From a phage: a stretch of 64,000 nt of DNA. The stretch lies in the sequence record PZ386958.1, one strand, 5' to 3'. Below the pieces are notes generated by a model. That model saw only the letters and a list, made by a program, of their open reading frames with translations. It did not search any database and had not been told where the DNA came from. Position numbers and translations under genes: made by a program. This document shows positions 4,819-62,361 of this stretch, one piece after another. Every line of letters starts with the position of its first letter. Within the stretch, counting starts at the first letter, position 1.

Positions 4819-4879
4819 AAGCCCTCCTATACAAGATATAGTATAAGGTACTCTTCCATGAGCACCTTGTCAATACTAA

Positions 4880-5436
4880 TTAGTGTACCTCATACCAGCT
4901 TTTACCAACCTTACCAGTACCTGTAACAAGTGTTTCTTTCTTAAGACCTAAGTTCTTAGAAGCTTGTCCATAATACCAGTCAGTAACTGCTTTCACTTCT
5001 GCCGTCATACTTTCTGGACATTCCCAACTCGTCTCGTCGTGATAGGAGCACAATAAACGAGCACCTATAGCTGGCTTGCGACCGTTCAACTTCATCAAAC
5101 CTTCGTCAATCATACGACGGCAAGCAAGGTTAATTGCTTCATTCTGAACCTGTGCTTCCGAACTCATCAGGAGGTAGTTCAGTAGTTTATGTGGAGATTT
5201 GCACCATATCCATGCTCCAGCGACCCTGATATAACCACCTTTAGCAATTGAAGAGTTCTTCCCGAAAACCTCTTCCAGAGCCTTTTTAGACGCCTTAAAA
5301 TCGGCTTCTAAGCTATCAAGTAACTTCTTAATCTTTGGCAGACGCATATAGTAAGTTTGTTTAGTCAATGCACCTTCTTCCGTAGATGATGCCTTGATAG
5401 TTTTTGCAAACTTCTCGTCACCTGCACCGAACAATA
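4880..5436 (-). CDS. DNA polymerase (family A, T7 gp5-like), exon 2
   Basis: Begins (L)FGAGDEKFA = end of O-helix/motif B (T7: FLYGAGDEK); contains motif C YHDE and C-terminal GKVGKSWYEVH (T7: GKMGPNWAICH). The track's start M is a TTG codon inside the exon. Confidence 0.8.
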
Positions 5437-60095: not shown

Positions 60096-60130
60096 GTTGA
60101 CATTAAGATGTGACTACTTTATAGTAACCT
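60096..60130 (+). promoter_or_regulatory. Sigma70-like promoter inside tRNA cluster (gttgacattaagatgtgactactttatagtaacc)
   Basis: TTGACA - 17 nt - TATAGT. Confidence 0.5.
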
Positions 60131-60328
60131 TAGTTTTCGTTGCGTAGCGTCTATTTTGCAAATTTAAAATAAATGCAAACGACAATGTTTTTCTGGCAGT
60201 AGCTTGATAGGCTAAACACCAGTGAGGTCTTCCAATCCCTCATCAAAGAATTTGGCGTACTCGCCCACGGTATGATTAATAAGGTGGGCATCTTTAAGGG
60301 CTTTCTAAGAGAGTCTTTAAAGATTAAT

Positions 60329-60403: not shown

Positions 60404-60519
60404 TATTTAGAGTGTCTCCAAATGGAGGTGGTCTGTATCTCATGTTTTCCAGAACATGTAAATAATCTGAGAAGGGGCTTTACAGTGTTGAGATAATACG
60501 GTAAGCTTCGAATTATAAT

Positions 60520-60602
60520 ATGGGACGATGTTAAGACTCTAAGGCATGAGCAACGGCTTCCAACACCGTTTCAAAGGGGTTCAACTCCTCCGTCCCATGC
60601 CA
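60520..60602 (+). tRNA. Atypical 83-nt tRNA (possible anticodon CCA, Trp) or tRNA-like gene
   Basis: Acceptor ATGGGAC/GTCCCAT and T-arm AGGGG-TTCAACT-CCTCC clear, CCA encoded; D/anticodon region too long and folds ambiguously. Confidence 0.35.
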
Positions 60603-60615
60603 AAGTCTTATTAGG

Positions 60616-60703
60616 GGTAGGTAGCGGCTAATGGTAGCCAAACTGTCTTGAAAACAGTTGCCACTGTAGAGATACGGTGAGGGTTCGACTCCTTTACTTA
60701 CCG
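60616..60703 (+). tRNA. tRNA-Ser (anticodon TGA), long variable arm; CCA apparently not encoded
   Basis: Anticodon stem ACTGT/ACAGT loop CTTGAAA; long extra arm; T-arm GAGGG-TTCGACT-CCTTT; acceptor 3' ACTTACC-G then CCT. Confidence 0.45.
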
Positions 60704-60859
60704 CCTAATAAGATTTTAAAGCCAAGCTTCATTCGGATGTTGCTTTGGCATCCCTCGTGTTGTCGTACACACTAATAAAGCACCTAGTAGGTGTCATGGA
60801 GAAGAGATAATATCAAGCTCTCCAAAGGTTCTAGTCACCGGATTAAACAAGACTATGCA

Positions 60860-60880
60860 AAGACCAATTTAGGTCTTTTT
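60860..60880 (+). terminator. Hairpin plus T-run (aagaccaatttaggtcttttt)
   Basis: Stem AGACC/GGTCT followed by TTTTT within tRNA cluster. Confidence 0.45.
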
Positions 60881-60959
60881 AGAGGGCTTCTAAGGTTATT
60901 ACAGCTTGTTGTGGAACCTTGTTGCTTAGGTTCTTAGAAGTTCTCTAAAAAGATTTAAT

Positions 60960-61036
60960 GCACCTATAGCCCAACTGGTAGAGGCAGCAGACTTAGAATC
61001 TGCTCAGTGTGAGTTCGAATCTCTCTAGGTGTACCA
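60960..61036 (+). tRNA. tRNA with anticodon TAG (Leu-decoding), short variable arm
   Basis: Acceptor GCACCTA/TAGGTGT; anticodon stem GCAGA/TCTGC loop CTTAGAA; T-loop TTCGAAT; CCA encoded. Confidence 0.45.
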
Positions 61037-61043
61037 AATTAAT

Positions 61044-61119
61044 GCAGGTGTAGCAGAATGGTGATGCGGCTGACTCTTAATCAGTAAGACGATGGGTTCA
61101 ATTCCCTCCACCTGTACCA
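61044..61119 (+). tRNA. tRNA-Lys (anticodon CTT)
   Basis: Paralog of 59848-59923; loop CTCTTAA; acceptor GCAGGTG/CACCTGT; CCA encoded. Confidence 0.55.
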
Positions 61120-61125
61120 AACATT

Positions 61126-61201
61126 GGGGATGTAGTTTACATGGTTAAAACATAAGTTTTGCAAACTTAAGTACAGGGTTCAATTCCCTGCTTCTCCACC
61201 A
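61126..61201 (+). tRNA. tRNA-Ala (anticodon TGC)
   Basis: Anticodon stem TAAGT/ACTTA loop TTTGCAA; G3:U70 wobble in acceptor; T-arm CAGGG-TTCAATT-CCCTG; CCA encoded. Confidence 0.55.
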
Positions 61202-61207
61202 ATTAGT

Positions 61208-61282
61208 GCATCCATAGTTTAAACGGGAAAATTACAGTCTTCCAAACTGAGGTTGAGGGTTCGATTCCCTCTGGATGCTCCA
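61208..61282 (+). tRNA. tRNA-Gly (anticodon TCC)
   Basis: Acceptor GCATCCA/TGGATGC; loop CTTCCAA; T-loop TTCGATT; CCA encoded. Confidence 0.6.
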
Positions 61283-61288
61283 AATAAA

Positions 61289-61365
61289 GCTGCTTTCGTA
61301 TAATTGGCTATTACACATCCCTTGTAAGGATGGAAATGCAGGTTCGAGTCCTGTGAGCAGCACCA
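61289..61365 (+). tRNA. tRNA-Thr (anticodon TGT)
   Basis: Acceptor GCTGCTT/GAGCAGC; anticodon stem CATCC/GGATG loop CTTGTAA; T-loop TTCGAGT; CCA encoded. Confidence 0.6.
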
Positions 61366-61367
61366 AT

Positions 61368-61455
61368 TCAGAGGTCAAGTGAAAGACCGCTGGTGTCAAC
61401 TGAAGACCGTAACAAATTCCACGGAGTTGAGTTAGCGGCACAACTTCAGACCTCT
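61368..61455 (+). ncRNA. Structured non-tRNA element with nested stems (CAGAGGTC...GACCTCT outer stem)
   Basis: Inner pairs TCAACT/AGTTGA and CCGCTG/AGCGG; contains bracket-like GAAGACCG; no ORF. Confidence 0.35.
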
Positions 61456-61460
61456 TTCAC

Positions 61461-61541
61461 ACTCGCTTAGTTTATATGGTAAAACATCACCCTTACAAGA
61501 TGAAGATGAAGAAAAAGGTTCAAGTCCTTTAGTGAGTACCA
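61461..61541 (+). tRNA. tRNA-like gene, atypical (possible anticodon TAC, Val) with enlarged variable region
   Basis: Acceptor ACTCGCT/AGTGAGT, T-arm AAAGG-TTCAAGT-CCTTT, CCA encoded; anticodon stem has a C-A mismatch. Confidence 0.35.
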
Positions 61542-61542
61542 T

Positions 61543-61620
61543 GTTCCAGTATCCCAATTGGCAGAGGATGCAAGCTCAAACCTTGTATTAGTGACGGTTC
61601 GAATCCGTCTTGGAACACCA
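61543..61620 (+). tRNA. tRNA with anticodon CAA (Leu-decoding), short variable arm
   Basis: Acceptor GTTCCAG/TTGGAAC; anticodon stem GCAAG/CTTGT loop CTCAAAC; T-loop TTCGAAT; CCA encoded. Confidence 0.45.
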
Positions 61621-62282: not shown

Positions 62283-62361
62283 GCTCCATTACTCCAATTG
62301 GCAGAGAGGCCAGACTTAAAATCTGTGTTATGTATCGGTTCGAATCCGATATGGAGTACCA
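62283..62361 (+). tRNA. tRNA with anticodon TAA (Leu-decoding), short variable arm
   Basis: Acceptor GCTCCAT/ATGGAGT; loop CTTAAAA; T-arm ATCGG-TTCGAAT-CCGAT; CCA encoded. Confidence 0.45.

What the first reader, a model, noticed from the sequence alone, without database searches (positions are those of the whole stretch)
60520..61620. Atypical tRNA genes: an 83-nt species, a tRNA-like gene with a mismatched anticodon stem, and Leu-decoding anticodons on short-variable-arm scaffolds
60520-60602 has canonical acceptor and T arms and an encoded CCA, but its D/anticodon region is about 7 nt too long and folds ambiguously (possible CCA anticodon). 61461-61541 likewise has good acceptor and T arms but a mismatched anticodon stem and enlarged variable region. 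Three genes with Leu anticodons (TAG 60960-61036, CAA 61543-61620, TAA 62283-62361) appear to lack the long variable arm expected of bacterial Leu tRNAs. These could be non-canonical or re-assigned phage tRNAs, pseudo-tRNAs, or errors in my manual folding.
Basis: inference. Interest (0 to 1): 0.35.

Follow-up and report, generated by a model that had tools for sequence, protein, structure and literature searches.

The report
Hidden non-canonical tryptophan tRNA in phage
The tRNA cluster of this Felix O1-type phage contains an unannotated, conserved 83-base tryptophan-type tRNA with an extra loop that standard tRNA finders miss; its short leucine tRNAs are a widespread, already noted variant, and its long valine tRNA carries a 6-base duplication seen in no other record.

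Summary
The window is a Felixounavirus (Felix O1-like) genome. All three observations are real.

1. The 83-nt element at 60520-60602 is missed by ARAGORN (default settings) and by the Rfam tRNA model. It still folds into a cloverleaf that is conserved across four phage groups: 99.5% of pair cells are kept and 8 of 19 pairs show compensatory changes. It has an invariant CCA anticodon, G73, an encoded CCA end, an 8-bp acceptor stem, a 4-bp T stem and an invariant 9-nt extra loop before the D stem. Trp is the only amino acid missing from the 25 called tRNAs. Twenty-three relatives carry a T5-like 71-nt tRNA-Trp at this same site, and a related Erwinia phage has a 76-nt homologue. I read the element as the phage's tRNA-Trp in an "8/4 + extra-loop" architecture. 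This is inferred: neither expression nor charging was tested.

2. tRNA-Val (81 nt) has a tandem GATGAA duplication absent from all 254 relatives. Its anticodon-stem mismatch is conserved across the subfamily.

3. The three Leu tRNAs have a class-II-type D arm, A73 and U48, but variable loops of only 5-7 nt. They are genuine Leu tRNAs, not reassigned. The same form is common in viral contigs and bacterial genomes and has been mentioned in print.

In passing: a conserved tmRNA-like RNA at 60132-60328.

The parts
60520..60602 (+). 83-nt tRNA-Trp-like gene (anticodon CCA, G73, encoded CCA). It is not annotated in any of the related GenBank records I inspected.
   Evidence: Cloverleaf by MFE and by RNAalifold. 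Covariation. Present in about 231 phage records with no tRNA annotation in any row shown. Missed by ARAGORN default and by Rfam.
60520..60527 (+). 5' strand of the acceptor stem. It forms 8 bp with 60591-60598 if G8 pairs with C65; otherwise 7 bp plus an A49.C65 mismatch in the T stem.
   Evidence: RNAalifold pairs columns 1-8 with 74-82. Pairs 1:72 and 2:71 covary (AU/GU/GC and UA/CG).
60528..60536 (+). Extra loop AUGUUAAGA between the acceptor stem and the D stem, where canonical tRNAs have 2 nt.
   Evidence: Invariant in 10 of 11 distinct homologues; one has a single U-to-C change. No complementary partner in the window above chance.
60537..60550 (+). D-like hairpin: CTC / TAAGGCAT / GAG (3-bp stem, 8-nt loop containing GG).
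   Evidence: The middle pair covaries (U-A in 5 homologues, A-U in 6) and one pair shows C-G versus U.G. The stem is 4 bp in the Yersinia and Pectobacterium phages.
60552..60570 (+). Anticodon arm: 5-bp stem AACGG/CCGTT, a conserved C31.A39 mismatch (60557/60565), a 7-nt loop TTCCAAC, and the anticodon CCA at 60560-60562.
   Evidence: Four of the 5 stem pairs have compensatory changes. CCA is invariant. The 31.39 mismatch (C.A or C.C) is present in every homologue, including the 76-nt Erwinia phage tRNA-Trp.
60576..60590 (+). T arm: GGGG / TTCAACT / CCTC.
   Evidence: One pair covaries (G-C in 9, U-A in 2). The loop fits UUCRANY.
60591..60602 (+). 3' strand of the acceptor stem, discriminator G73 (60599) and the encoded CCA (60600-60602).
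   Evidence: Read directly from the sequence. G73 and CCA are invariant.
61461..61541 (+). tRNA-Val(UAC), 81 nt, with a C30.A40 mismatch (61490/61500) and a 10-nt variable loop.
   Evidence: ARAGORN score 114; Rfam 53 bits.
61499..61510 (+). Tandem duplication GATGAA-GATGAA that lengthens the variable loop of tRNA-Val from 4 to 10 nt.
   Evidence: All 16 relatives extracted have 75-76 nt with a single GATGAA or its equivalent. None of 254 records reaches 99% identity; the best are 97.7% over 254 bases against the 260-base query.
60960..61036 (+). tRNA-Leu(UAG), 77 nt, 5-nt variable loop.
   Evidence: Rfam 57 bits.
61543..61620 (+). tRNA-Leu(CAA), 78 nt, 6-nt variable loop.
   Evidence: Rfam 44 bits.
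62283..62361 (+). tRNA-Leu(UAA), 79 nt, 7-nt variable loop.
   Evidence: Rfam 47.5 bits.
60097..60125 (+). Sigma-70-like promoter TTGACA-17-TATAGT. It probably starts the transcript that carries the tmRNA-like RNA, tRNA-Arg, the 83-nt element and tRNA-Ser (inference).
   Evidence: Matches 11 of 12 consensus positions. No + strand terminator was predicted between 59800 and 62700. The TTGACA hexamer is kept in most relatives, including the Erwinia phage.

Best explanation
The region is the tRNA cluster of a Felixounavirus.

(1) The 83-nt element at 60520-60602 is a structurally constrained descendant of tRNA-Trp(CCA) and most likely serves as the phage's tryptophan tRNA. Its inferred architecture is an 8-bp acceptor stem, a 4-bp T stem (12 bp stacked in total, as in a 7/5 tRNA), an invariant 9-nt extra loop before a short D hairpin, an anticodon stem with a conserved 31.39 mismatch, and a 7-nt loop carrying CCA. 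It is probably transcribed with its neighbours from the promoter at 60097-60125, cut out by RNase P and 3' nucleases, and charged by host TrpRS through G73, the CCA anticodon and the A1-U72 pair. The fold and its conservation are shown. Transcription, processing, charging and decoding are inferred.

(2) tRNA-Val(UAC) is the ordinary subfamily gene plus a 6-nt slippage duplication found only in this genome. Its effect is unknown.

(3) The three Leu tRNAs are genuine leucine acceptors. They keep the class-II-type D arm and the hinge elements that E. coli LeuRS reads, but have lost the long variable arm, which LeuRS does not need. Ser and Tyr tRNAs keep their long arms.
For: Identity of the window: 95-97% identical to many Felixounavirus records.

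83-nt element
- Fold: MFE and RNAalifold give the same cloverleaf.
- Covariation: across 11 distinct homologues from Felixounavirus, Mooglevirus, Suspvirus and Yersinia/Pectobacterium-infecting Ounavirinae, 99.5% of pair cells are standard pairs. Eight of 19 pairs changed on both sides. No shuffle (0 of 500) reached the observed values, and the slid controls gave 0 compensated pairs.
- Invariant features: anticodon CCA, G73, the CCA end and the UUCRANY T loop.
- Rate of change: identity to relatives (0.90, 0.83, 0.81, 0.76) lies within the range of the 25 bona fide tRNAs.
- Missing isotype: the 25 called tRNAs cover 19 amino acids, and Trp is the only one missing. A published analysis of the related phage Sf14 likewise reports 26 tRNAs for 19 amino acids (PMC12482277).
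- Alternative allele: 23 related records have, at this same site, a 71-nt tRNA-Trp(cca) plus an HNH endonuclease gene. Its short D arm matches the annotated 71-nt tRNA-Trp of T5.
- Homologue: the Erwinia phage FIfi106 has a 76-nt tRNA-Trp with the same GGC-UUCCAAA-CCC anticodon arm, including the 31.39 mismatch.
- Precedent for the shape: 8/4 tRNAs occur in phages, and 8/4 tRNAs with an extra loop have been described (PMC5389517; PMC7609411).

tRNA-Val.

Leu tRNAs
- D arm N-A14-A15-Y-U-G18-G19-Y-A20a-G-A on a 3-bp stem, A73 and a terminal U48, the same layout as E. coli leuV/leuZ and T5 Leu.
- E. coli LeuRS needs A73, A15-U48, G18G19 and A20a, not the long arm (PMC9976931).
- Isotype scores are highest for Leu.
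- Ser (90, 93 nt) and Tyr (88 nt) keep their long arms.
- Two closely related Pectobacterium phages carry an 87-nt and a 77-nt Leu(UAA) with the same acceptor stem.
Against: There are no expression, processing or aminoacylation data for any of these genes.

For the 83-nt element:
- Position 8 is G rather than U, and the extra loop has no known tertiary role.
- The only extra-loop 8/4 tRNA tested so far was not charged by the E. coli enzymes tried (GlyRS, ThrRS; PMC5389517).
- The Yersinia and Pectobacterium versions need a bulge or a G.U pair in the acceptor stem.
- The 31.39 mismatch weakens the anticodon stem.
- The single-sequence fold energy is unremarkable (z = -1.56).
- G8-C65 and the extra loop never vary, so covariation cannot decide between 8/4 and 7/5.
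- The 11 sequences are related, so the shuffle control overstates significance. The slid control does not share this bias.
Confidence: 0.55

Rival explanations
1. The 83-nt element is a conserved tRNA-like RNA that does not decode. It could be a decoy or sponge for a host tRNA-directed nuclease or for a tRNA-binding or modifying enzyme, a regulator, or a processing signal in the polycistronic precursor. It would keep a tRNA shape only so that it is recognised.
For: Its structure and the sequence of its extra loop are under constraint, which fits any function that depends on structure. T5 annotates several 'tRNA-like stable RNAs with unknown functions' inside its tRNA cluster. The extra-loop 8/4 tRNA tested by Mukai et al. 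was not charged in vitro. Phage tRNAs are known to counter tRNA-cleaving defences such as retron-Eco7 and Septu, which act on tRNA-Tyr (PMC13096335).
Against: A decoy would not need an invariant CCA anticodon, G73 and an encoded CCA end all at once, nor to be the only Trp-type gene in a set that otherwise covers 19 amino acids. In other relatives the slot is filled by tRNA-Trp genes of other shapes.
Confidence: 0.3
2. The 83-nt element is a decaying tRNA-Trp pseudogene, disabled by an insertion of about 7 nt in the D region. It looks conserved only because the genomes are closely related.
For: Standard tRNA finders reject it. It contains mismatches (31.39 and 49.65). The Yersinia and Pectobacterium copies have an irregular acceptor stem.
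Against: Eight pairs have compensatory double changes, while only one of 209 pair cells is broken. It persists across four groups that differ by up to 24% in this element, and it diverges no faster than the real tRNAs. The unpaired extra loop is invariant.
Confidence: 0.08
3. The Leu-anticodon tRNAs with short variable loops are reassigned: they are charged with an amino acid other than leucine.
For: Their overall shape is class I rather than the class II shape usual for tRNA-Leu.
Against: They carry the full E. coli LeuRS identity set and a class-II-type 3-bp D stem with an 11-nt D loop. They have no G3.U70 pair. The long arm that SerRS needs is absent. Published isotype-model scores for the homologous tRNAs of phage Sf14 are highest for Leu. 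The same architecture carries all six Leu anticodons in 61 viral and 118 bacterial examples.
Confidence: 0.03

Closest known systems
Canonical tRNA-Trp(CCA), for example the 76-nt gene of Erwinia phage FIfi106 (Kolesnikvirus)
   Same: CCA anticodon, G73, A1-U72 or G1.U72, a UUCRANY T loop and an encoded CCA. The anticodon arm GGC-UUCCAAA-CCC with its 31.39 mismatch is shared with the Erwinia phage gene, so the two are homologous.
   Different: The element is 83 nt rather than 76. It has a 9-nt extra loop in place of U8-N9, G8 paired with C65 (8/4 rather than 7/5), and a 3-bp D stem. ARAGORN default and the Rfam tRNA model do not detect it.
(8/4) tRNAs and 'E-loop' 8/4 tRNAs of Mukai et al. 2017 (PMC5389517; reviewed in PMC7609411)
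   Same: A 12-bp acceptor branch split 8/4. The review describes an extra loop between the acceptor stem and the D stem. Such tRNAs occur in polycistronic tRNA clusters, and 8/4 Ser and His tRNAs are reported in phages.
   Different: Those tRNAs are Ser-, His- or allo-types or are of unknown identity. The allo-tRNAs have long variable arms, and the E-loop examples come from soil metatranscriptomes. This element has Trp identity elements and a 5-nt variable loop, and it sits in cultured E. coli and Salmonella phages. No sequence comparison with those tRNAs could be made here.
The 71-nt tRNA-Trp of phage T5 (T5t20) and T5's 'tRNA-like stable RNAs'
   Same: A structurally reduced or odd tRNA-Trp inside a phage tRNA cluster that ARAGORN misses. 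The same 71-nt type replaces the 83-nt element, together with an HNH endonuclease gene, in 23 Felixounavirus/Suspvirus records.
   Different: The T5 type has a shortened D arm (3 bp plus a 5-nt loop) and a normal 7/5 branch. The 83-nt type has an added loop. blastn found no match to the 83-nt element at that site in TH10.
Short-variable-loop tRNA-Leu of mycobacterial tRNA clusters (PMC6582537), of other bacterial genomes, and of animal mitochondria
   Same: Leu anticodons, A73 and a 4-7 nt variable loop. The bacterial and viral forms share the D arm UAGCCCAAUUGGYAGAGGC.
   Different: Nothing essential differs; the window's three genes are further members. Animal mitochondrial tRNA-Leu lacks the bacterial-type D arm (from general knowledge, not tested here).

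Membership tests
Canonical tRNA (Rfam RF00005; ARAGORN default model) | Detected above threshold by the standard covariance or heuristic models | tested here: not met
   83-nt element: no RF00005 hit at E<=10, and only tRNA-Sec at 16.9 bits against a cut-off of 47. ARAGORN fails at default settings, at -ps50 and in intron mode. tRNA-Val and the three Leu genes do meet this feature (44-57 bits).
Canonical tRNA | 7-bp acceptor stem, a 2-nt connector (U8, N9) and a 5-bp T stem | tested here: not met
   The connector is 9-10 nt, position 8 is G, and 49.65 is an A.C mismatch in every homologue. RNAalifold prefers an 8-bp acceptor stem with a 4-bp T stem.
Canonical tRNA | Four-helix cloverleaf maintained by compensatory substitutions | tested here: met
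   99.5% of pair cells are paired and 8 of 19 pairs are compensated; controls.
tRNA-Trp (bacterial TrpRS identity) | Anticodon C34 C35 A36 | tested here: met
   CCA at 60560-60562, centred in a 7-nt loop, invariant in 11 homologues. Rule from PMC9976931.
tRNA-Trp (bacterial TrpRS identity) | Discriminator G73 and the first base pair A1-U72 | tested here: met
   G73 is invariant. Pair 1:72 is A-U in the window; relatives have A-U, G.U or G-C.
tRNA-Trp | Aminoacylation with tryptophan and decoding of UGG | not testable with these tools
   Needs charging assays or tRNA sequencing from infected cells.
(8/4) tRNAs with an extra loop (Mukai 2017) | 12-bp acceptor branch arranged as 8 + 4 | tested here: inconclusive
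   RNAalifold predicts G8-C65, and A49.C65 is never a standard pair. Both columns are invariant, so there is no covariation to decide the matter.
(8/4) tRNAs with an extra loop (Mukai 2017) | Extra loop between the acceptor stem and the D stem | tested here: met
   The 9 unpaired nucleotides AUGUUAAGA at 60528-60536. Description of the class from PMC7609411.
Class II tRNA-Leu | Long variable arm (10 nt or more, with a stem) | tested here: not met
   The variable regions are 5, 6 and 7 nt, against 13-15 nt in E. coli leuV/leuZ, T5 Leu and Pectobacterium phage Wc4 Leu.
tRNA-Leu (E. coli LeuRS identity) | A73; A14; the A15-U48 Levitt pair; G18G19 and A20a placed in an 11-nt D loop on a 3-bp D stem | tested here: met
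   All three genes read C-A-A-Y-U-G-G-Y-A-G-A on a 3-bp stem, have A73, and end the variable loop in U. Rule from PMC9976931. This was checked at sequence level only.
tRNA-Val(UAC) | Class I cloverleaf with a 4-5 nt variable loop | tested here: not met
   The variable loop is 10 nt because of the GATGAA duplication. All relatives have 75-76 nt genes without the duplication.

The most novel reading that the evidence does not exclude
The 83-nt RNA is a fully functional, Trp-charged elongator tRNA with a previously uncharacterised architecture: an 8/4 acceptor branch and a sequence-invariant 9-nt extra loop between the acceptor and D stems. On this reading the odd shape, like the differently odd 71-nt T5-type tRNA-Trp that replaces it in some relatives, was selected because it escapes a host factor that recognises or cleaves normal tRNA-Trp.
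Probability: 0.3. Interest if true: 0.72.

Novelty: new variant of a known kind. Interest (0 to 1): 0.5.

Why it matters
Felix O1-type phages are classic, widely used Salmonella and E. coli phages. Annotated genomes and a published analysis of a related phage report tRNAs for only 19 amino acids.

If the 83-nt RNA is the missing tRNA-Trp, three things follow. The cluster would encode a complete set of 20. Standard annotation pipelines would be shown to miss a conserved gene in more than 230 deposited genomes. And an "8/4 plus extra loop" tRNA, so far known only from uncultured soil sequences of unknown function, would become testable in a tractable phage-host pair.

The Leu result is a useful correction rather than a discovery. 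tRNA-Leu without the long arm is common in phages and bacteria, contrary to a general statement in a recent review. This fits the biochemical finding that bacterial LeuRS ignores the arm.

Tried and rejected
- An IMG/VR scan with the 14-mer GACGATGTTAAGAC returned mostly chance matches. Only a few loci were Felix-like.
- A structured pattern scan of IMG/VR found only Ounavirinae copies and no new diversity.
- ARAGORN with lowered thresholds and in intron mode produced only implausible overlapping calls (Pyl and an undetermined Glu|SeC type), so there is no intron-containing or shifted canonical tRNA at the site.
- A 9-nt anticodon loop, and with it quadruplet decoding, was considered. I dropped it because relatives read C-CUCCAAA-A, which is the canonical tRNA-Trp 7-nt loop closed by a 31.39 mismatch.
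- An alternative D pairing, AUG (60528-60530) with CAU (60545-60547), is not supported by any compensatory change and is broken in phage PC79-13. The CUC/GAG register does covary.
- A search of the window for a partner complementary to the extra loop gave chance-level counts.
- The idea that short-loop tRNA-Leu is specific to phages was rejected. A capped scan of bacterial genomes gave 118 such genes, some beside ordinary chromosomal genes.
- A literature search for the tmRNA-like tag peptides found no occurrence of either sequence.
Full report
**What the window is.** The tRNA region is 95-97% identical to many Felix O1-like phages (Felixounavirus, Ounavirinae). ARAGORN finds 25 tRNA genes between 58690 and 63556, all on the + strand. 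They cover 19 amino acids, and tryptophan is the only one missing.

**The 83-nt element (60520-60602): does it exist?**

The sequence has a 7-bp acceptor stem, a T arm with a TTCAACT loop, G73 and an encoded CCA. [quoted passage not shown]

Standard tools reject it:
- ARAGORN does not call it at default settings, at half threshold or in intron mode. Only its mitochondrial mode calls it, as Trp(cca).
- The Rfam tRNA model gives nothing even at E<=10. The best match is tRNA-Sec at 16.9 bits against a cut-off of 47.
- None of the related GenBank records I looked at annotates it. That includes a record annotated with tRNAscan-SE.

**Is it more than chance?**

The single-sequence fold is a cloverleaf, but its energy is ordinary (z = -1.56). 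The comparative evidence is what counts.

About 231 of 255 matching phage records contain the element. I collected 11 distinct versions from Felixounavirus, Mooglevirus, Suspvirus, a Yersinia phage and two Pectobacterium phages.
- On the cloverleaf I proposed, 99.5% of pair cells are standard pairs and 8 of 19 pairs changed on both sides. No shuffle (0 of 500) reached these values, and sliding the partners by 1-3 columns gave 0 compensated pairs.
- RNAalifold, run independently on the same alignment, returned the same four helices.
- Four of the 5 anticodon-stem pairs covary, for example AACGG/CCGTT, GTAAG/CTTAC and GTAGG/CCTAC.
- The element's identity to relatives (0.90-0.76) lies inside the range of the 25 real tRNAs.

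This argues strongly against a decaying pseudogene.

**Anatomy.**
- RNAalifold pairs G8 with C65. That gives an 8-bp acceptor stem and a 4-bp T stem. The alternative 49-65 pair is A.C in every sequence.
- Nine unpaired nucleotides, AUGUUAAGA, follow. They are invariant except for one U-to-C change in one genome.
- Next comes a 3-4 bp D-like hairpin whose loop contains GG.
- The anticodon stem ends in a conserved C31.A39 (or C.C) mismatch and closes a 7-nt loop YUCCAAM.
- In most relatives that loop is CUCCAAA. The window has UUCCAAC, differing at positions 32 and 38.
- I therefore dropped the idea of a 9-nt loop.
- G8-C65 and the extra loop never vary, so the 8/4 reading is inferred, not proven.

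**What it most likely is.** Four lines of evidence point to tRNA-Trp.
1. It fills the only missing isotype. A published study of the related phage Sf14 also counts 26 tRNAs for 19 amino acids and does not mention the element (PMC12482277).
2. It has the main TrpRS determinants: the CCA anticodon, G73 and the first pair A1-U72 (PMC9976931).
3. Twenty-three Felixounavirus/Suspvirus records have, at this same site, a 71-nt tRNA-Trp(cca) followed by an HNH endonuclease gene. Its short D arm (3 bp plus a 5-nt loop) matches the annotated 71-nt tRNA-Trp of T5.
4. Erwinia phage FIfi106, from the same subfamily, has a 76-nt tRNA-Trp whose anticodon arm is GGC-UUCCAAA-CCC, mismatch included. The 83-nt form is therefore a homologue with about 7 nt added in the D region.

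A strong promoter-like site lies at 60097-60125, and no + strand terminator follows it. This suggests co-transcription with tRNA-Arg and tRNA-Ser (inference).

No step of expression, processing or charging is shown. A non-decoding tRNA-like RNA remains a serious rival.

**Comparison with known types.** Mukai et al. described 8/4 tRNAs, including Ser and His tRNAs in phages, and 8/4 tRNAs with an extra loop in soil metatranscriptome polycistrons. The one extra-loop tRNA they tested was not charged by E. coli GlyRS or ThrRS (PMC5389517). A later review places that loop between the acceptor and D stems (PMC7609411). The present element looks like a Trp-identity, short-variable-loop variant of that kind, in cultured enterobacterial phages.

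**tRNA-Val (61461-61541).**
- ARAGORN and Rfam accept it.
- The C.A mismatch at 30:40 is real. A mismatch at the same position (C.A or U.U) is present in every relative examined, so it is a conserved trait of the subfamily.
- The enlarged variable loop comes from a tandem GATGAA duplication at 61499-61510.
- All 16 extracted relatives have 75-76 nt genes. None of 254 database records shares the duplication; the best match is 97.7% over 254 against 260 bases.
- It is either a mutation found only in this genome or an assembly error. Its effect is unknown.

**Leu tRNAs.**
- All three have a 3-bp D stem, an 11-nt D loop CAAYUGGYAGA, A73 and a variable region of 5-7 nt ending in U. This is the layout of E. 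coli leuV/leuZ and T5 tRNA-Leu without the long arm.
- The elements that E. coli LeuRS requires are exactly those retained. The long arm is dispensable (PMC9976931).
- tRNAscan-SE isotype scores published for the Sf14 homologues are highest for Leu.
- Ser and Tyr tRNAs in the window keep their long arms.
- Every Ounavirinae Leu tRNA I extracted is short, except an 87-nt Leu(UAA) in Pectobacterium phage Wc4. Its close relative Arno162 has a 77-nt version with the same acceptor stem.

The form is not special to this phage:
- A capped IMG/VR scan gave 61 such Leu tRNAs.
- A capped scan of bacterial genomes gave 118, with all six Leu anticodons. Some lie beside ordinary chromosomal genes.
- A short-loop tRNA-Leu in mycobacterial tRNA clusters has been remarked on in print (PMC6582537).
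- A statement in an M. tuberculosis study implies the same for some of that species' Leu tRNAs (PMC11541572).

So the Leu observation is correct but ordinary, and reassignment is not supported. [quoted passage not shown]

**Verdict.** The one item of real interest is the conserved, unannotated, extra-loop tRNA-Trp-like gene.

Noticed in passing
window 60132-60328 (+), between tRNA-Ile and tRNA-Arg; promoter-like site at 60097-60125: A conserved, unannotated RNA resembles the mRNA-like part of tmRNA. The stretch at 60175-60210 reads ANDNVFLAVA followed by two stop codons (the E. coli ssrA tag is ANDENYALAA). Rfam aligns the resume-codon region to tmRNA models below threshold (33.3 and 15.9 bits against a cut-off of 47), and I found no tRNA-like domain. 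Homologues occur in 628 phage records, including Ackermannviridae, Klebsiella siphoviruses and Buchananvirus. Their tags are ANDAQFLAVA, ANEEMYLAVA, ANDNTFLAVA and ANDDVVLMAA. A consensus fold of six sequences has 10 of 28 pairs compensated. The upstream arm at 60131-60157 is also antisense to the tag region of E. coli ssrA (22 of 27 bases). No paper in the library contains these tag sequences.
   Followed up: partly
L004 (Escherichia virus TH10) 1603-2090; same site as window 60520-60602: In 23 Felixounavirus/Suspvirus records the 83-nt element is replaced by a cassette of a 71-nt T5-like tRNA-Trp(cca) plus an HNH homing endonuclease gene. The upstream spacer is kept. This suggests allele exchange driven by the endonuclease.
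   Followed up: partly
L134 (phage T5) 15178-15248, minus strand: T5's annotated 71-nt tRNA-Trp is not found by ARAGORN even with a lowered threshold (-ps90). T5 also annotates several 'tRNA-like stable RNAs with unknown functions' in its tRNA cluster. Odd tRNA-Trp genes may be a recurring feature of phages.
   Followed up: partly
window 61490/61500 and the homologous positions in L001-L005 and L126-L131: The 30:40 pair of tRNA-Val(UAC) is mismatched (C.A or U.U) in every Ounavirinae genome examined, so the mismatch itself appears to be conserved.
   Followed up: partly
L129 (Pectobacterium phage Wc4) 4802-4888, compared with L130 (Arno162) 4819-4895: Two closely related phages carry, at the corresponding position, an 87-nt long-arm and a 77-nt short-loop tRNA-Leu(UAA) with the same acceptor stem. 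This looks like a recent swap between the two architectures.
   Followed up: no
L280-L399 (bacterial genome contigs), e.g. L288 1164-1238 and L325 6011-6085: Short-variable-loop tRNA-Leu genes with the D arm UAGCCCAAUUGGYAGAGGC are common in Actinomycetota, Planctomycetota and other bacterial assemblies. Some lie next to housekeeping-type genes (Ppx/GppA phosphatase, an ANTAR response regulator). This is at odds with a review's statement that tRNA-Leu has a long arm everywhere except animal mitochondria.
   Followed up: partly
window 60404-60519: The 115-nt spacer upstream of the 83-nt element is conserved at 90-99% in relatives, including those with the alternative Trp cassette. By eye it contains hairpins (for example CATGTT-TTCCAG-AACATG). 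Its function is unknown.
   Followed up: no
L005 (Citrobacter phage Moogle) 1419-2167: ARAGORN reports a 749-nt 'permuted tmRNA' with the tag ANDNVFLAVA. The call spans several ordinary tRNA genes, so it is probably an artefact built on the real tag-like region. ARAGORN reports nothing of the kind in the window.
   Followed up: yes
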